The notes under the pieces: model-generated
Databases searched by the model: none
Seen by the model: the letters and a program-made list of their open reading frames with translations, nothing else
Told to the model about the DNA's origin: nothing
NCBI GenBank assembly: GCA_964563525.1
Contig: CAZLWI010000001.1
Span: 1-63,187 of the forward strand
Source of the DNA: an uncultured Lachnospiraceae bacterium
GTDB lineage: Bacteria; Bacillota; Clostridia; TANB77; CAG-508
Direction of reading: 5' to 3'
Length of the DNA: 63,187 nt
Made by a program: the position numbers and the translations under genes
Part shown: positions 57,803 to 63,187 of the stretch, piece by piece
Layout: every line of letters begins with the position of its first letter
Position numbering within the stretch: the stretch's first letter is position 1

Positions 57803-58162
57803 TTATTTTGCTCCTGCAACTTGTGTATCTACTAAGCCCTTTACTATTTGTAAAATAGCAGCTGCTCCAAATATACATACAGCACCTATTAGATATCCCC
57901 ACCAAGCTTTCTTTAAATCTCCTTGTTTTTCTGGAGCTGCTGTGAAATATCTAACACCATACCAAATAAGCATTATTACTGCGATAGCAATAGCAATATA
58001 TTGTACTATAGTTATTGCTTTGTTTACTGGTCCTGATATTTTAGAATCAATACTTTCAATTTGACCTGGCTTTGGAAAGCTATCTGCATTAACTATTACA
58101 GGTAGTACTGCGGCAAATAGAAATGTTACTACTAATATTATTGTTAATAATTTTTTCTTCAT
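57803..58162 (-). CDS. VirB2/TrbC-like pilin-type protein, paralog 1
   Basis: 119 aa with a GGAGG RBS. It has a signal peptide (cleavage around VNA/DS) and two hydrophobic helices separated by a short charged loop (YFTAAPEKQGDLKK). Confidence 0.6.
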   Translation of the reverse strand: MKKKLLTIILVVTFLFAAVLPVIVNADSFPKPGQIESIDSKISGPVNKAITIVQYIAIAIAVIMLIWYGVRYFTAAPEKQGDLKKAWWGYLIGAVCIFGAAAILQIVKGLVDTQVAGAK

Positions 58163-58259
58163 GTTTTTTTCCTCCTATTAATTTGCAAATTAATAAATAA
58201 ATTTATTTTATATATACTATTTTAGCATATATTGAAACCTATGTAAAGATAAAGAAGTT

Positions 58260-58643
58260 TTACTTTATTAAGTCCGTTGATTGACTCATTATTAGATTAA
58301 CTATTGTTGTAGGAATAAATATAAATACTCCTCCAATTATATAGTAAAGTATTCTTCTTTTTATATTAGCTTTTTCTGAATTATCTACAGTAGTTATAAA
58401 CTTAATACCATCCATTATTACTAGAATAACTGCAACTCCAATTGATGCAACTTGTATAACTGTTAGAATGGGATTAGCTATTGATTGTATCTTAGTTATT
58501 TCAGCATTATCAATACTTTCTGCTGGATTTTTAATAAAATCACTAAAATCAGCACCTGCTTCTACTGTATTAAACAAAGCAAAAAGACTTGTTAATATTA
58601 ATAAAGTTATTAAAATAATTGTTAATTTTTTTGTTTTTTTCAT
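58260..58643 (-). CDS. VirB2/TrbC-like pilin-type protein, paralog 2
   Basis: 127 aa with the same architecture: signal peptide (VEA/GA), TM1, loop TTVDNSEKANIKRR, TM2. Confidence 0.55.
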   Translation of the reverse strand: MKKTKKLTIILITLLILTSLFALFNTVEAGADFSDFIKNPAESIDNAEITKIQSIANPILTVIQVASIGVAVILVIMDGIKFITTVDNSEKANIKRRILYYIIGGVFIFIPTTIVNLIMSQSTDLIK

Positions 58644-58718
58644 AATATATCCTTATTATTTTTAAACTGTTTGTGTATTACCTGGAATATTAATAGAGTT
58701 ACTGGTTTGATTGTTTTG

Positions 58719-59147
58719 TTAATTTACATAGCCTTTTATTATTTGACCAATTCCTAAAACTATAAACAATGCTCCAATTATTAATAGAAAACCAATAAAT
58801 ATAGATGATAATCTATTATTAAGTTCAGCTTTTTTGCTTGGATCATGTGATTTCATAAAATATTCAGCACCTAACCAAATCAGCATAATAACAGCTAATG
58901 CCATTCCAAACCATTGCAAACCTTCTATTATTTTTAATACAAGTTGTAAAGTTTTAGCAGAATCTTCTCCTATTTCATCTGGATTATCAACATTAAATAC
59001 AGGACCTATTCCTTTTGTGTCAATTGGATTGCTTTCTGCAAAACTAGTATTTGTAGACATTAATGTAAATAGCATAAATACAAATATAGTTGTAAATAAT
59101 AATAGTTTAAAAATCTGTAGTTTATTTTGTTTTTTTAATTTTTTCAT
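58719..59147 (-). CDS. VirB2/TrbC-like pilin-type protein, paralog 3
   Basis: 142 aa with the same architecture: signal peptide (SFA/ES), TM1, loop YFMKSHDPSKKAELNN, TM2. Confidence 0.55.
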   Translation of the reverse strand: MKKLKKQNKLQIFKLLLFTTIFVFMLFTLMSTNTSFAESNPIDTKGIGPVFNVDNPDEIGEDSAKTLQLVLKIIEGLQWFGMALAVIMLIWLGAEYFMKSHDPSKKAELNNRLSSIFIGFLLIIGALFIVLGIGQIIKGYVN

Positions 59148-60348: not shown

Positions 60349-60349
60349 T

Positions 60350-61543
60350 ATGTTATCATCAGCAATGAAATTAGTATTAATGTTAATAGCCTTTATGGTA
60401 TTTGCATTTATTATTGTCTTAGGAGTCTATCTGTTTTTGAAAAATAGAAAAGATGAGGACTTAGATAGTGTTGATAGAATTAAAGATGCTAAGCCTAAAA
60501 CAAGTGGAAAATCATCAACTGGAGTAGGAGGTAAATTTCATGGAGTACTTAATACTGACAGTATTTATAGATTTATGGAATTTGAAGAAATCATAGATGG
60601 TATGATTATTCGAAAAAACAGAACACAATTTGTAATGATATTAGCATGTAATGGTATTAATTTTGATTTAAGATCAGATGAAGAAAAATTTGCTATAGAA
60701 GAAGGATTTCAACAGTTTTTAAATGTAATAAAATATCCTGTTCAACTTTATGTACAAACAAGAGGTATGAATTATGATAATTTAATTCAAGGATATGAAA
60801 ATAGATTAAATATTATAGAGGCTGATATTAAAGAATCAGATTCTATTATTGCTAAAGAAACAAAAGCACAAAATGAAAAAAATGTTCAAAAAGAGACTAA
60901 AAATAAAAGAAGAAAACAAAATATTAAAGAATATGCTCAAGATACTATAAAATATGTTAATAGATTGAGTAATAATCAAAATGTATTACATCAGAAATCA
61001 TATGTTGTAGTTTCATATTATATAAGTGAATTTGGACCTAAGATTAGCAATTATTCTCCAGATGAAATTCAAGATATGATATTTGATGAGTTATTTACTA
61101 GATGTTCTAACTTAAGTAGTGCATTACAATCTTCAGGAGTAACATCAAGAGTATTAAATTCTGAAGAATTAATGGAATTATTATTTAATGCATATAATAG
61201 AGATGCAACTGAATATATGAGAATAGATAATTACTTAGATGCAGAATATGATTCGTTATATTCAACAGCAAAAGAAGTTCTAGAAAAGAGAAAAGAAAAA
61301 CTAGAAGAAGAAATATCTTTAGATGCAATTAATTTAGCTACAAGTAGTATTGTTCAAGCAACTAAAAAAAGAAGAGCAGAATTAGAAAAGATAGAGAAAG
61401 AAAAGAAAAAGAAGATTAAAATAGCAGCAAAAAAATATGTTGAAGAATATAGAGATAAGTTAGATCAAGCAATATATGAGACTGCATTACAAAATGTAGA
61501 TGAAGCAGATTTAGAAGAGTTAGATAAAGAAGTAGAAGACTAG
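60350..61543 (+). CDS. Membrane-anchored coiled-coil protein of the T4SS locus, with a segment resembling the VirB4/TrbE N-terminal domain
   Basis: 397 aa with an N-terminal TM segment. The stretch FEEIIDGMIIRKNRTQFVMILACNGINFDLRSDEEKFAIEEGFQQFLNVIKYPVQLYVQTR resembles CagE/TrbE/VirB-type N-domains. There is no Walker motif, and the tail is Lys/Glu-rich. Confidence 0.4.
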   Translation: MLSSAMKLVLMLIAFMVFAFIIVLGVYLFLKNRKDEDLDSVDRIKDAKPKTSGKSSTGVGGKFHGVLNTDSIYRFMEFEEIIDGMIIRKNRTQFVMILACNGINFDLRSDEEKFAIEEGFQQFLNVIKYPVQLYVQTRGMNYDNLIQGYENRLNIIEADIKESDSIIAKETKAQNEKNVQKETKNKRRKQNIKEYAQDTIKYVNRLSNNQNVLHQKSYVVVSYYISEFGPKISNYSPDEIQDMIFDELFTRCSNLSSALQSSGVTSRVLNSEELMELLFNAYNRDATEYMRIDNYLDAEYDSLYSTAKEVLEKRKEKLEEEISLDAINLATSSIVQATKKRRAELEKIEKEKKKKIKIAAKKYVEEYRDKLDQAIYETALQNVDEADLEELDKEVED

Positions 61544-61571
61544 AAAAAGAATACTAGAAAGAGAGAAAAAT

Positions 61572-63187
61572 ATGGCTGAAGAAGATAAGAAGAAAGAAAA
61601 AGGTATAGTATCTAGAAATGTTAAAAGTATTAAAGAGTTAATAGCTCCTGGTGGTATTGATGCTACTTATACAAATCATCTTGAAATAATATCAAATAGG
61701 ACGAAATATGCTAGATCAATGGCTGTAACAGCATTACCAAGAACAACAGTATTCCCTGAATTTTTAAGAGATATGTATAATTTTGGAGATATTAATGTTT
61801 CTGTATTTATTAATGCAATACCTGTATCGTTATCACAAGCTGATTTAAATAAAGAAATTAATACATTAATTACAGAAATAATAGTTGCACAAGATAGAGG
61901 AGATGTTAATAGAGCTAGATCTTTAACCATTAAAAAAGCTGAAAGAGAAGAATTAAGAGATGAGATTGAAGCAGGTTGGAATAGTCTATTTAATGTTTCA
62001 ATAATATCTACAATATTTTCTTCAACATCAGTTGAAGATTTAGATAGATTAACAGAGGAATTCTCTTCTGAGATGGGTAGAACATTACTTGTAGCCAAAC
62101 CTACATGGGCAATGCAAGATGTAGCTTTCCAATCTAATTTACCATTTAATGACAATAAGATAAATATTTCTCATACATTTGATAGAAATTCAATGGGAAC
62201 AGTTTTTCCATTCTTTACATCTGAAATAGGTCATAGCTCGGGAATTCCTTTAGGTTTTAACAGACAAACAGGAGTACCAATTTTCTATGATAATTTTAGT
62301 AAGGATTTAACAAACTATAATATGGTTGTATTTGGTAAATCTGGTTCTGGTAAATCTGTTACAATCAAAACTTTAACAGCTAGATCAGCAGTTTTACAAG
62401 GAATATCATCATTAGCATTAGATGTTGAAGGTGAATATGTAGCATTATCAGAAGTTTTAGGTGGTGTTAATATTACAATTAGTCCTACTTCAAGCACTAT
62501 TTTAAATATTTTCGATATTGAACCTGAAATAACAAAAGATGAAATTACCGGAAAAGAGAGATGGGTTTTAAATGTTGAATCAAAAATAGAGGATGTTACT
62601 CAAATATTATTAACAATGGCAAGAGGTAGTACTAAATCTCAAGATGTAACTGAAGTAACAAAACAAATAATATCTGAAGCAGTTGCGCAAGAATACGAAA
62701 GATGTGGTATTACACATAATGTATCGAGTTTATATAAAGATGGTGTAATTGATGAGAGTTCACTTGATTTCATAAATAAAGAAAAGAAAGATATGCCAAC
62801 AATTGAAACATGGTATAGGGCAATGGAAAAGAATTCTAAAGAGAACACAGTATCAGATTATAATTTTCATTTTTCATATCTATTAAAAGTTATGAAACAG
62901 TATGTTAGATCATTAGGTGGACAACTAGGATATTTTGATGGTCAATCAACATTTGATTTATTAGATGATGATATACCATTTATTAATTTAGATATATCTC
63001 AATTAGAGGAAAGATTTGCAAGACCACTTGCACAACAAATATTATTATCTTGGGTTTGGGAAAAATATGTTAAGAAAAACAGTGAAGATAAATCAAAAGC
63101 TAAAATGAAAAGAGTTATTATTGATGAAGCTTGGATGTTATTACCATTCCCAGAAGCAGTTGATTTCTTAAATACAACAGCAAGAAG
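61572..63187 (+). CDS. virB4: VirB4/TrsE/PrgJ-family type IV secretion ATPase (partial; continues past the window end)
   Basis: Own translation from the ATG at 61572: MAEEDKKKEKGIVSRNVKSIKELIAPGGIDATY...; Walker A MVVFGKSGSGKSVT; Walker B KRVIIDEAWMLL. It is open to the last base of the window and is not in the ORF track. Confidence 0.88.
   Translation, partial: MAEEDKKKEKGIVSRNVKSIKELIAPGGIDATYTNHLEIISNRTKYARSMAVTALPRTTVFPEFLRDMYNFGDINVSVFINAIPVSLSQADLNKEINTLITEIIVAQDRGDVNRARSLTIKKAEREELRDEIEAGWNSLFNVSIISTIFSSTSVEDLDRLTEEFSSEMGRTLLVAKPTWAMQDVAFQSNLPFNDNKINISHTFDRNSMGTVFPFFTSEIGHSSGIPLGFNRQTGVPIFYDNFSKDLTNYNMVVFGKSGSGKSVTIKTLTARSAVLQGISSLALDVEGEYVALSEVLGGVNITISPTSSTILNIFDIEPEITKDEITGKERWVLNVESKIEDVTQILLTMARGSTKSQDVTEVTKQIISEAVAQEYERCGITHNVSSLYKDGVIDESSLDFINKEKKDMPTIETWYRAMEKNSKENTVSDYNFHFSYLLKVMKQYVRSLGGQLGYFDGQSTFDLLDDDIPFINLDISQLEERFARPLAQQILLSWVWEKYVKKNSEDKSKAKMKRVIIDEAWMLLPFPEAVDFLNTTAR

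What the first reader, a model, noticed from the sequence alone, without database searches (positions are those of the whole stretch)
57803..63187. Type IV secretion-like locus with four VirB2/TrbC-type pilin paralogs in a Gram-positive-type genome, abutting mscL with no visible mobility genes
Directly after the mscL terminator lie three minus-strand genes (119, 127 and 142 aa). A fourth, divergent plus-strand gene (146 aa) follows. All four share one architecture: a cleavable signal peptide, a short variable segment, TM1, a charged loop of about 10 aa (often DPxxK), and TM2. This is the VirB2/TrbC pilin layout. They are followed by PrgI/VirB3-like, a 397-aa membrane protein, and VirB4. Firmicutes conjugation systems are usually described as lacking VirB2 pilins, so four diverged paralogs with separate promoters are unusual. 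On the visible left side there is no integrase, relaxase, tRNA attachment site or direct repeat. The locus could be the edge of an ICE, or a chromosomal T4SS-derived apparatus for adhesion, DNA uptake or release, or effector delivery.
Basis: partly seen in the sequence, partly recalled or inferred. Interest (0 to 1): 0.65.

Follow-up and report, generated by a model that had tools for sequence, protein, structure and literature searches.

The report
Chromosomal type IV secretion pilus system
This is one end of a roughly 17-kb type IV secretion gene cluster with four pilin genes; it is a fixed chromosomal feature of an uncultured, small-genome group of gut Clostridia rather than a mobile element, and it resembles the non-conjugative system that parasitic Patescibacteria need to grow.

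Summary
Window 57803-63187 encodes four small paralogous proteins (119, 127, 142 and 146 aa). All four hit Pfam T4SS_pilin: three are above the curated cut-off and the fourth is 0.1 bit below it. They are followed by a PrgI/VirB3-like gene, a 397-aa TrsD/TraC-like protein (a VirB4 N-terminal domain encoded as a separate gene) and a short VirB4 cut off by the window end.

A 99.4%-identical contig and a sister species show how the cluster continues: four paralogous VirB6-like proteins and three proteins of unknown function, then DnaJ, a penicillin-binding protein and MscS.

- No integrase, relaxase or coupling protein flanks the cluster.
- G+C matches the surrounding DNA.
- The mscL-side synteny is kept between species.
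- The same module occurs in at least 472 species-representative genomes, including named TANB77/CAG-508 genera.
- VirB4 is better conserved (87-89%) than neighbouring housekeeping proteins (63-76%), whereas the pilins diverge fast (34-55%).
- The nearest mobile relatives (about 39% VirB4 identity) have one pilin and one VirB6-like gene.

Best reading: a domesticated monoderm T4SS with expanded pilin and VirB6 sets, working as a surface pilus or contact apparatus. The premise that Gram-positive systems lack VirB2 is now outdated. What the system transports is unknown.

The parts
57753..57781 (.). Perfect 14-nt inverted repeat flanked by A7 and T7: a likely bidirectional terminator between mscL (+) and pilin A (-).
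   Evidence: repeat I15. The terminator scan missed it because the stem is AT-rich.
57803..58162 (-). Pilin A, 119 aa, VirB2/TrbC-type.
   Evidence: PF18895 36.8 bits and PF04956 33.4 bits, both above their cut-offs. Layout. Orthologue 47-55% identical in L005/L010.
58260..58643 (-). Pilin B, 127 aa.
   Evidence: PF18895 33.9 bits (cut-off 26.6); NF045849 Mbov_0395 pilin-like 26.6 bits, below its cut-off. Orthologue 43-51% identical.
58719..59147 (-). Pilin C, 142 aa (136 aa from an internal ATG, as called on the ENA contig).
   Evidence: PF18895 32.8 bits. Gene call. Orthologue 34-42% identical.
59148..59559 (.). 412-bp divergent intergenic region with very low G+C (0.17-0.19); presumed divergent promoter region. 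It carries a 30-bp indel relative to the conspecific ENA contig.
   Evidence: No Rfam match. Promoter scan not significant.
59560..60000 (+). Pilin D, 146 aa, the pilin next to prgI.
   Evidence: PF18895 26.5 bits against a cut-off of 26.6. It hits the local pilin HMM, and a pilin occupies this position in other loci. In 58% of cases the best cross-locus match of a prgI-proximal pilin is another proximal pilin.
60016..60348 (+). PrgI/VirB3-like small membrane protein, 110 aa.
   Evidence: PF12666 PrgI 24.0 bits, below the cut-off of 27. Orthologues in L009 and L090 carry precomputed PrgI hits. Conserved position in the roughly 80 loci that include this part of the cluster.
60350..61543 (+). 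TrsD/TraC-like protein, 397 aa: an N-terminal TM helix plus a VirB4 N-terminal-domain homologue encoded as a separate gene.
   Evidence: Precomputed PF26593 TraC-like. Weak TraC_F_IV and VirB4_plasma hits. AF2 model pLDDT 67.5. Top 12 Foldseek PDB hits are all R388 TrwK/VirB4 chains, E 0.02-0.16. TrsD is described in PMC12102498.
61572..63187 (+). VirB4-family ATPase, first 538 of 653 residues (cut by the window end).
   Evidence: P-loop_TraG and DUF87. The full-length protein scores 197.9 bits on NF045971 conju_CD1110, matching from model position 182 onward. 65-71% identical across 78 of the 80 species loci, 89% in L010.

Best explanation
The window holds the first third of a roughly 17-kb chromosomal gene cluster for a monoderm (MPF-FATA-type) type IV secretion machine. 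The cluster has been fixed in, and appears vertically inherited by, a lineage of uncultured, low-G+C, small-genome gut Clostridia. The named relatives belong to order TANB77, family CAG-508.

Shown:
- The parts list is four VirB2-type pilins, a VirB3-like protein (PrgI), a membrane-anchored VirB4 N-domain protein (TrsD-like) and a short VirB4 ATPase. Beyond the window come four paralogous VirB6-like polytopic proteins and three conserved proteins of unknown function (433, 191 and about 313 aa).
- Housekeeping genes lie on both sides.
- No relaxase, coupling protein or integrase was found near the cluster.
- The ATPase is under strong constraint, while the pilins and VirB6-like proteins diverge fast.

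Inferred mechanism:
- The pilins are exported by Sec, cleaved by signal peptidase and stored in the membrane as helical hairpins.
- The VirB4 hexamer is held at the membrane by the TrsD-like and PrgI-like proteins. It extracts the pilins and polymerises them on a VirB6-like platform into a short pilus or conduit through the wall.
- The several pilin and VirB6 paralogs give alternative or mixed surface structures. This could mean partner range or antigenic variation, as proposed for the pilin arrays of Patescibacteria, Bartonella and Anaplasma.
- Without a relaxase or coupling protein, the machine is most likely not used to transfer itself. It more likely serves contact-dependent exchange, adhesion or uptake with neighbouring cells.

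The cargo is unknown.
For: Components.

Cluster extent and ends:
- The conspecific contig L004/L094 and the gap-free L095 show the continuation.
- In sister species L093 the cluster ends with the 977-aa VirB6-like gene, then 191-aa and 313-aa genes, followed by DnaJ, a penicillin-binding protein and MscS.

Not a mobile element:
- Upstream is nrdD-mfd-spoU-DUF4364-mscL, in the same order in L005/L010 (87-89% VirB4 identity).
- SpoU and DUF4364 are still within 6 kb upstream in the much more distant L011.
- G+C of 0.24-0.31 matches the flanks.
- phmmer with a T4CP seed and a tyrosine-integrase seed found nothing in the 63-kb window or in the other loci.
- All 24 Pfam families found in 41 representatives of downstream genes are wall hydrolases or housekeeping proteins.
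- Upstream neighbours in other genera are M16 peptidases, YqeY, MgsA, Mur ligase, ribosomal proteins and the like.

Lineage-wide distribution:
- 472 of 599 candidate stretches in species-representative genomes encode a relative.
- The best 80 loci share the same module wherever the sequence extends far enough.
- They include Ca. Scatovivens and CAG:354, which PMC13106387 and bioRxiv 10.1101/2021.05.11.441322 place in TANB77/CAG-508.

Selection, for the same genome pairs:
- VirB4: 87-89% identity.
- SpoU 68-69%, DUF4364 63%, MscL 73-76%.
- Pilins 34-55%; VirB6-like proteins 37-67%.

Derivation from conjugative ancestors: the nearest outgroups have the same order with one pilin and one VirB6-like gene. 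They are P0123 (39% VirB4 identity, next to a T4CP and an integrase) and C. botulinum plasmid p12/29 (38.7%).

Precedent: Patescibacteria have a chromosomal, mostly relaxase-less T4SS with TrsD next to VirB4 and arrays of 2-11 VirB2 genes averaging 25% identity. It is essential for epibiotic growth in Southlakia (PMC12102498, PMC12857230).
Against: - No experiment exists: expression, pilus formation and substrate are all untested.
- A coupling protein or relaxase could be encoded elsewhere in the genome. I could only inspect the window, about 10 kb on each side of virB4 in 80 species, and a further stretch downstream in one sister species.
- One of the 80 loci (L081) does have a T4CP three genes upstream of the pilins.
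- The plasmid relative p12/29 is itself typed 'non-mobilizable'. Relaxases of this T4SS family may therefore be unrecognised, which weakens the argument from absence.
- The pilin assignment rests on profile matches and topology only. The AF2 pilin model was poor (pLDDT 58.8), and sequence and fold searches against solved VirB2 structures gave nothing specific.
- The VirB6-like assignment rests on sub-threshold NCBIfam hits.
- In this species no peptidoglycan hydrolase domain is recognisable in the cluster. The M23 domain of the L005 orthologue is missing.
- High VirB4 identity could in principle reflect transfer within the lineage rather than constraint. However, the other cluster proteins diverge about as much as the housekeeping genes.
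Confidence: 0.6

Rival explanations
1. It is a working chromosomal conjugation or DNA-donation machine. The coupling protein and relaxase are encoded elsewhere and act in trans, or are too divergent to recognise. The system would mobilise chromosomal DNA or other elements between cells of the lineage.
For: - All close outgroups belong to conjugative-type modules.
- One locus (L081) has a T4CP three genes upstream.
- The plasmid relative p12/29 has no recognised relaxase either, so this family's relaxase may be unknown.
- Coupling-protein genes are often located far from virB4 (PMC12102498).
Against: - 79 of 80 loci and the whole 63-kb window lack a T4CP homologue.
- No relaxase or integrase family appears among the downstream neighbours.
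- Pilin and VirB6 expansions are not seen in the mobile relatives.
- Conservation of this machine across at least 472 species is unusual for a pure DNA donor.
Confidence: 0.15
2. It is a DNA-uptake (competence-type) T4SS, analogous to Helicobacter ComB or the archaeal Ced system. The pilus would capture DNA and the VirB4/VirB6 channel would import it.
For: - It is relaxase- and T4CP-less, like ComB and Ced.
- A ComEA-like gene (SLBB + HHH_3) lies directly upstream of the pilins in L023 and three other loci.
- VirB2-like pilins act in archaeal DNA import (PMC9905601).
Against: - ComEA adjacency occurs in only 4 of 80 loci.
- The CedB and CedD models score only about 30 bits against cut-offs of 600-700.
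- In Southlakia the T4SS is essential but ComEC-dependent transformation is not (PMC12857230). The closest functional precedent is therefore not DNA uptake.
Confidence: 0.12
3. It is the left edge of an integrative conjugative element or another recently acquired island.
For: The gene content derives from conjugation systems.
Against: - The right side is now seen: the cluster ends at DnaJ, a penicillin-binding protein and MscS in the sister species.
- No integrase, relaxase or T4CP was found.
- No tRNA lies near the locus; the nearest are at 17.6 kb.
- No flanking repeats beyond AT-rich chance matches.
- G+C equals the flanks.
- The insertion context is the same in three species, and the module is present in at least 472 species.
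Confidence: 0.05
4. It is a decaying remnant of an old conjugative element with no current function.
For: - This species lacks the M23 hydrolase domain found in the sister species.
- The neighbouring mfd gene is a pseudogene, which shows that gene decay happens in this genome.
Against: - All cluster ORFs are intact in the window and in conspecific contigs.
- VirB4 is more conserved than the housekeeping neighbours.
- Gene order is kept across 80 species.
Confidence: 0.03

Closest known systems
Patescibacteria (CPR) chromosomal T4SS, e.g. Southlakia epibionticum ML1 (PMC12102498; PMC12857230)
   Same: - Monoderm MPF-FATA-type parts: VirB3/PrgI, TrsD next to a short VirB4, VirB6, and wall hydrolases downstream.
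- Chromosomal, lineage-wide, and lacking a nearby relaxase.
- Arrays of sequence-divergent VirB2-like pilins: 2-11 there, 1-8 here (four in the window).
- The hosts have reduced genomes and are uncultured or hard to culture.
   Different: - A different phylum (Bacillota/Clostridia).
- The nearest named VirB4 relatives here are Firmicutes: Heliorestis, a Peptostreptococcaceae MAG, Caldanaerobacter and Clostridium plasmids. Membership of the Patescibacteria VirB4 clade was not tested and is unlikely.
- Here the VirB6-like proteins are also expanded (3-5 paralogs).
- Essentiality and an epibiotic lifestyle are unknown for this lineage.
Pilin-PrgI-TrsD-VirB4-VirB6-hydrolase modules on Clostridium plasmids and ICE-like elements (C. 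botulinum p12/29 NZ_KT897275.1, C. beijerinckii NZ_CP107023.1, metagenomic L091/L092)
   Same: - Same gene order.
- Short VirB4 (about 650 aa) with a separate TraC-like N-domain protein.
- A pilin homologue immediately upstream.
- VirB4 38.7-39.7% identical.
   Different: - These are on plasmids, or next to a T4CP and an integrase.
- They have one pilin and one VirB6-like gene.
- They are not syntenic with housekeeping genes.
pGO1/pSK41 (TrsD/TrsE) and pCF10 (PrgF-PrgH-PrgI-PrgJ) Gram-positive conjugation systems
   Same: - MPF-FATA class.
- In pGO1, TrsD is a VirB4 N-terminal-like protein encoded separately (PMC12102498).
- In pCF10, PrgF is a two-TM VirB2-like protein with a charged loop. 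It is essential for conjugation and is modelled as a pilus on pentameric VirB6 (bioRxiv 10.64898/2025.12.18.695078).
   Different: - Those are plasmid-borne and have a relaxase and a coupling protein.
- A single functional pilin.
- I made no direct sequence comparison with PrgF or TrsD; the relation is through Pfam/NCBIfam profiles and the literature.
Mycoplasma ICE transfer genes (Mbov_0395 pilin-like, Mbov_0396 TM protein, Mbov_0397 VirB4)
   Same: The pilins, VirB6-like proteins and VirB4 give their best or near-best NCBIfam hits to these three adjacent ICE families.
   Different: All the scores are far below the curated cut-offs (for example 30 against 40, 22 against 70, 185 against 590). 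These are distant relatives, not members, and the Mycoplasma systems are mobile ICEs.
TANB77 conserved Tad-type pilus cluster ('pilin 938', PMC11680825)
   Same: A lineage-wide surface-filament gene cluster with several pilin-like genes, in the same uncultured order.
   Different: It is an unrelated machine built from CpaB, TadZ, CpaF and TadB/C, with single-TM type IV-like pilins of 143-236 aa. That paper does not mention a T4SS, VirB or conjugation. The Tad cluster was not seen among the window genes examined.

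Membership tests
VirB2/TrbC-type T4SS pilin (Pfam PF18895 / PF04956) | Profile match at or above the curated cut-off | tested here: met
   PF18895 scores 36.8, 33.9 and 32.8 bits for pilins A-C (cut-off 26.6). Pilin D scores 26.5, which is 0.1 bit short. 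PF04956 scores 33.4 bits for pilin A (cut-off 27.9) and is below cut-off for B and C.
VirB2/TrbC-type T4SS pilin (Pfam PF18895 / PF04956) | Small protein with a cleavable signal peptide and two TM helices joined by a short charged loop | tested here: met
   Read directly from the alignment. The AF2 model gives helices at 3-27, 39-74 and 77-117, but at low confidence (pLDDT 58.8).
VirB2/TrbC-type T4SS pilin (Pfam PF18895 / PF04956) | Encoded next to virB3/virB4/virB6 homologues | tested here: met
VirB2/TrbC-type T4SS pilin (Pfam PF18895 / PF04956) | Similarity to solved VirB2/TraA/TrwL pilin structures | tested here: inconclusive
   The profile search of PDB sequences found only designed TM or coiled-coil proteins. 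Foldseek on the low-confidence model found generic helical hairpins, all with E above 1.
VirB2/TrbC-type T4SS pilin (Pfam PF18895 / PF04956) | Polymerises into an extracellular pilus | not testable with these tools
   Needs multimer modelling with the VirB6-like proteins, or microscopy and surface-shearing proteomics.
Monoderm MPF-FATA-type T4SS (TrsD-containing subclass) | VirB4-family ATPase | tested here: met
   P-loop_TraG 70.1 bits and DUF87 35.9 bits are above cut-offs. The best NCBIfam match is conju_CD1110 at 197.9 bits, below the equivalog cut-off of 325. It is therefore a family member but not that equivalog.
Monoderm MPF-FATA-type T4SS (TrsD-containing subclass) | Separate TrsD-like protein homologous to the VirB4 N-terminal domain, encoded next to virB4 | tested here: met
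   Precomputed PF26593 TraC-like. VirB4 matches its models only from position 182/279 onward. The top 12 Foldseek hits are VirB4 of R388, but weak (E 0.02-0.16, TM about 0.2).
Monoderm MPF-FATA-type T4SS (TrsD-containing subclass) | VirB3/PrgI-like protein | tested here: inconclusive
   PF12666 scores 24.0 bits against a cut-off of 27. Orthologues in L009 and L090 carry precomputed PrgI hits. The position is conserved.
Monoderm MPF-FATA-type T4SS (TrsD-containing subclass) | VirB6-like polytopic membrane protein | tested here: inconclusive
   There are four paralogs. Their hits to Mbov_0396, MMCAP2_0566 and pLS20_p028 are only sub-threshold. A local HMM links them to the protein after VirB4 in plasmid p12/29.
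Monoderm MPF-FATA-type T4SS (TrsD-containing subclass) | Peptidoglycan hydrolase (VirB1/PrgK-type) | tested here: not met
   None is recognisable in this species' cluster. Relatives have one: M23 in L005, Phage_lysozyme2 in L023, NlpC/P60 with lysozyme in L081, C39_2 in L079.
Integrative conjugative element / conjugative plasmid | Relaxase and type IV coupling protein | tested here: not met
   No T4CP homologue in the window or in 79 of 80 loci. No relaxase or T4CP family among the downstream neighbours. Whole genomes could not be scanned.
Integrative conjugative element / conjugative plasmid | Integrase or recombinase, attachment site, and flanking repeats or a tRNA | tested here: not met
   No integrase homologue. 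tRNAs occur only at 17.6 kb. No convincing flanking repeats.
Integrative conjugative element / conjugative plasmid | Patchy distribution, variable insertion context or atypical composition | tested here: not met
   The context is the same in three species. The module is present in at least 472 species representatives. G+C is like the flanks.
Patescibacteria-type non-conjugative T4SS | Chromosomal, lineage-wide, no adjacent relaxase, TrsD with VirB4, VirB2 arrays | tested here: met
   compared with the description in PMC12102498.
Patescibacteria-type non-conjugative T4SS | VirB4 belongs to the monophyletic Patescibacteria clade | not tested
   No Patescibacteria sequences were available to me. 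The nearest named relatives are Firmicutes, so membership is unlikely. The resemblance is functional and architectural.
Patescibacteria-type non-conjugative T4SS | Required for growth on a partner cell | not testable with these tools
   The lineage is uncultured (PMC11680825).

The most novel reading that the evidence does not exclude
The TANB77-type Clostridia, a prevalent but never-cultured gut lineage with reduced genomes, may carry a domesticated T4SS whose pilus is a core organelle for obligate contact with partner cells (other bacteria or the host). That would be a Firmicute counterpart of the essential Patescibacteria T4SS. The expanded pilin and VirB6 sets would tune partner range. This could help explain why the lineage resists cultivation. 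It would also add a second conserved surface filament, besides the Tad pilus, to a clade linked to immunotherapy response.
Probability: 0.2. Interest if true: 0.85.

Novelty: new variant of a known kind. Interest (0 to 1): 0.62.

Why it matters
A December 2025 review still describes the Patescibacteria T4SS as unique among monoderms, both for its likely pilus and for its non-conjugative, growth-essential role (PMC12857230). This locus shows a second, independent case in ordinary Firmicutes. A conjugation-derived machine has been fixed in the chromosome of a whole uncultured gut lineage. Its ATPase is more constrained than neighbouring housekeeping genes, and both its pilin and its VirB6 sets are multiplied.

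I found no paper linking TANB77 to a T4SS.

If the system mediates cell-cell dependence, it gives a concrete handle for co-culture strategies: which partner does it contact, and which pilin does it use? It would also serve as a natural comparison set for how conjugation systems are repurposed.

If it is only an unrecognised conjugation system, it would still widen the known range of VirB2-bearing Gram-positive T4SSs.

Tried and rejected
1. Solved-structure support for the pilins failed. The PDB profile search gave only designed TM proteins. The AF2 model from the four window paralogs was poor (pLDDT 58.8), and its Foldseek hits were generic hairpins.
2. The 397-aa protein gave nothing against PDB by sequence. 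Only the fold search pointed to VirB4, and weakly.
3. The conserved 433-aa family gave no Pfam, NCBIfam or PDB-profile match. Whether it is VirB8-like could not be tested.
4. The promoter/terminator scan was uninformative in this AT-rich DNA. There were no Rfam matches. No credible inverted repeats flank the inverted three-pilin block, so an invertible switch is not supported. The inversion is fixed in L004, L005, L010 and L011.
5. I looked for the one T4SS-DNA_transf hit reported among 149 flanking proteins. It took three attempts and turned out to be a single upstream gene in L081.
6. I tried to place the VirB4 relative to Patescibacteria through the 50%-cluster representatives and their names.
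7. My recollection that the pCP13 Pcp locus has an annotated VirB2 was not borne out by the papers checked, so I dropped it.
8. I first assumed that the ENA contig was the source of the window. It is a 99.4%-identical conspecific contig.

Full report
**What is in the window**

The ORF list confirms three minus-strand genes directly after mscL: 57803-58162 (119 aa), 58260-58643 (127 aa) and 58719-59147 (142 aa). mscL itself is at 57280-57732 (PF01741, E 9e-43). A 412-bp AT-rich gap follows, then plus-strand genes of 146 aa (59560-60000), 110 aa (60016-60348) and 397 aa (60350-61543). An ORF starting at 61572 runs off the window end.

A perfect 14-nt inverted repeat flanked by A7/T7 at 57753-57781 sits between mscL and the first small gene. 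It looks like a bidirectional terminator.

G+C across the locus (0.24-0.31) is the same as in the flanks.

**Identity of the genes**

- All four small proteins hit Pfam PF18895 T4SS_pilin at 36.8, 33.9, 32.8 and 26.5 bits (curated cut-off 26.6). The first also exceeds the TrbC/VirB2 cut-off at 33.4 bits.
- NCBIfam gives sub-threshold hits to the Mycoplasma ICE pilin-like family for all four.
The paralogs are 25-38% identical.
- The 110-aa protein is PrgI-like at 24 bits, just below the cut-off.
- The 397-aa protein is not just a generic membrane protein. The collection's precomputed annotation gives PF26593 TraC-like.
- The VirB4 that follows matches VirB4 models only from position 182 or 279 onward.
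- An AF2 model of the 397-aa protein (pLDDT 67.5) has R388 TrwK/VirB4 chains as its top 12 Foldseek hits. These hits are weak, at E 0.02-0.16.
- This is the arrangement the literature calls TrsD plus VirB4 (PMC12102498).

**Beyond the window**

A conspecific contig (ENA ERZ4239849 NODE_295) is 99.4% identical over the overlap and encodes an identical 397-aa protein. It continues the cluster as follows:

- VirB4 (653 aa)
- a 402-aa protein
- a 433-aa protein
- a 784-aa protein
- a gene interrupted by an assembly gap, which is a single 760-aa ORF in the gap-free contig L095
- an 897-aa protein
- the start of a 191-aa gene

The 402-, 784-, 760- and 897-aa proteins are paralogs of one another. They give weak hits to VirB6-type ICE and plasmid membrane-protein families.

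In the sister species the cluster ends with 191- and 313-aa genes. DnaJ, a PASTA-domain penicillin-binding protein and MscS follow.

**Mobile element or chromosomal fixture**

- Upstream, the order nrdD-mfd-spoU-DUF4364-mscL-pilins is kept in two further species whose VirB4 is 87-89% identical.
- In a much more distant oral MAG (L011, VirB4 71%), spoU and DUF4364 still lie within 6 kb upstream.
- A scan of one genome per species found at least 472 relatives. All of the best 80 loci carry the module as far as their sequence extends. The module is: pilins, PrgI-like, TrsD-like, short VirB4, VirB6-like paralogs, the '433' family, large VirB6-like and hydrolase proteins, and a conserved protein of about 315 aa.
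- Their flanks are housekeeping genes: an M16 peptidase pair, YqeY, MgsA, Mur ligase, PBP5, ribosomal proteins and elongation factors.
- The 41 representatives of downstream genes contain only 24 Pfam families. All are wall hydrolases or housekeeping proteins; none is a relaxase, coupling protein or recombinase.
- phmmer with a T4CP seed and a tyrosine-integrase seed found nothing in the window or in the other loci. The only T4CP is one upstream gene in L081.
- Named genomes among the loci include Ca. Scatovivens and Clostridium sp. CAG:354. Published work places both in GTDB order TANB77, family CAG-508 (PMC13106387; bioRxiv 10.1101/2021.05.11.441322).
- Two closed genomes in the set are 1.7-1.8 Mb.
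- TANB77 is reported as uncultured with reduced genomes (PMC11680825).
- I did not prove that the window organism itself belongs to TANB77. That rests on its sharing this clade-specific cluster.

**Selection pattern**

Percent identity between the window species and its two nearest sister species:

| Protein | Identity |
|---|---|
| VirB4 | 87-89% |
| TrsD-like | 71% |
| PrgI-like | 65-66% |
| SpoU (neighbour) | 68-69% |
| DUF4364 (neighbour) | 63% |
| MscL (neighbour) | 73-76% |
| Pilins | 34-55% |
| VirB6-like proteins | 37-67% |

Against L011, VirB4 is 71% identical while SpoU and DUF4364 are 38% and 33%. The other cluster proteins are 24-45%, similar to the housekeeping genes.

The ATPase is therefore exceptionally constrained. 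The rest of the cluster has diverged along with the genome, which argues against recent transfer of the whole cluster. The fast-evolving parts are the ones expected to be exposed at the surface.

**Relatives outside the clade**

- A search of 1.84 billion cluster representatives shows a gap. One representative is 60% identical, and then full-length hits drop to 39% and below.
- The 39% relative sits in an element with a 1030-aa T4CP and a tyrosine integrase (L092).
- The best plasmid matches are in C. beijerinckii (39.7%) and C. botulinum p12/29 (38.7%). The C. botulinum plasmid has the same gene order.
- Heliorestis has a 36% relative beside LexA-like and RecD2-like genes.
- My local HMMs find exactly one pilin and one VirB6-like gene in each of these elements.
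- In the TANB77-type loci the number of pilins upstream of prgI ranges from 1 to 8. The commonest count is 3; 4 and 7 are also frequent. Within-locus paralogs are 33% identical on average, and there are 3-5 VirB6-like paralogs.
- In the window's genus and in L011, the three distal pilins are inverted relative to the arrangement in the other loci examined.

**Relation to what is known**

A December 2025 preprint changes this (bioRxiv 10.64898/2025.12.18.695078). It shows that PrgF of pCF10 is an essential VirB2-like protein. It also finds candidates in 95% of representative Gram-positive conjugative plasmids and confident pilus-like models in 71%. A pilin next to a Firmicute VirB4 is therefore no longer surprising in itself.

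The closest description of the whole arrangement is the Patescibacteria T4SS (PMC12102498; PMC12857230):

- It is chromosomal and mostly relaxase-less.
- TrsD lies next to VirB4.
- It has arrays of 2-11 VirB2 genes averaging 25% identity.
- Wall hydrolases lie downstream.
- The system is essential for epibiotic growth of Southlakia.

The present system matches that architecture in a different phylum. Its nearest named VirB4 relatives are Firmicutes, so it looks like an independent domestication.

The only TANB77 'pilin' paper describes an unrelated Tad-type cluster and never mentions a T4SS (PMC11680825). A full-text search for TANB77 together with 'type IV secretion' found nothing relevant.

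**Mechanism: shown and inferred**

Shown: the parts list, the chromosomal context, the distribution across species and the constraint pattern.

Inferred from established T4SS biology (R388 and F-type structures, and the PrgF/PrgH models):

- The pilins are inserted by Sec, cleaved and pooled in the membrane.
- The VirB4 hexamer, docked through the TrsD-like and PrgI-like proteins, feeds them onto a VirB6-like pentamer to build a tube across the wall.
- Multiple pilin and VirB6 paralogs provide alternative surfaces.

No coupling protein or relaxase is in sight. I therefore favour a non-conjugative contact, exchange or adhesion role (confidence 0.6 for the overall reading, far lower for any specific cargo).

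The rivals are conjugation with trans-encoded partners (0.15), DNA uptake (0.12), an ICE edge (0.05) and a dead remnant (0.03).

**Limits**

- I could not scan whole genomes for T4CP or relaxase genes.
- The plasmid relative p12/29 is typed non-mobilizable, so unrecognised relaxases are possible in this T4SS family.
- Structure-level support for the pilins failed.
- The VirB6-like and PrgI-like calls are sub-threshold.
- The 433-, 191- and ~313-aa proteins remain unassigned.
- This species lacks a recognisable wall hydrolase in the cluster.
- Nothing here tests expression or function.

**Verdict**

This is not an ICE edge. It is a lineage-wide, chromosomally fixed, conjugation-derived T4SS with expanded VirB2 and VirB6 families: a new variant of a known kind, with a plausible but unproven parallel to the essential Patescibacteria system.

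Noticed in passing
window 52385-55927: mfd (transcription-repair coupling factor) is split into four ORFs by three single-base frameshifts, at about 54078-54088, 54981 and 55325-55332. The 99.4%-identical ENA contig shows the same ORF pattern. The gene is intact (1174 aa) in the sister species L005. It is probably a real pseudogene.
   Followed up: partly
window 28283-33388 and 33369-40487: Two adjacent giant ORFs of 1701 aa and 2372 aa. The first has SdrD_B-like and DUF11 (Ig-like) domains and the second has no Pfam match. They are probably cell-surface adhesins of this small-genome organism.
   Followed up: partly
L004:11955-13163; L095:505-2787; L090:11868-13958; L097:13059-15665: The VirB6-like proteins contain a segment that weakly matches the T4SS_pilin profile (18.5 and 16.5 bits). 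My pilin HMM also hits the VirB6-like proteins of Heliorestis and of plasmid p12/29. This suggests a pilin-like helical hairpin embedded in these VirB6-like proteins.
   Followed up: no
L004:14482-16836 compared with L005:14518-17712: The sister species' 1064-aa VirB6-like protein carries a Peptidase_M23 domain at residues 111-207. The 784-aa orthologue of the window species starts after that region. No peptidoglycan hydrolase is recognisable in this species' cluster.
   Followed up: partly
L023:5671-6318 (and three other loci): A ComEA-like gene (SLBB + HHH_3 domains) lies directly upstream of the pilin array in a closed 1.8-Mb genome. This could hint at a link to DNA uptake, or it could be coincidence.
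   Followed up: no
L081:166-1653: The only type IV coupling protein found near any of the 80 clusters (PF02534, E 2e-71). It lies three genes upstream of the pilins, before the M16 peptidase pair. It is unclear whether it belongs to the system or to another element.
   Followed up: no
window 59148-59559 compared with L001: The window and the ENA contig differ by 39 mismatches and 10 gaps over 11.4 kb. One difference is a 30-bp indel in the AT-rich pilin C / pilin D intergenic region. That region, the putative divergent promoter, therefore varies between strains.
   Followed up: no
window 57803-59147 compared with loci L008-L089: The three distal pilin genes are on the minus strand in the window's genus and in L011, but co-directional with prgI in the other loci examined. 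This is a fixed inversion of the distal pilin block, and no flanking inverted repeats were detected.
   Followed up: partly
L090 (Heliorestis convoluta CP045875.1, 163887-185812): The Heliorestis relative of this T4SS module is immediately followed by a Tad-type pilus cluster (T2SSE, T2SSF and a prepilin peptidase). It is preceded by LexA-like, sigma, NusG-like and RecD2-like genes, so it is probably an integrated element.
   Followed up: no
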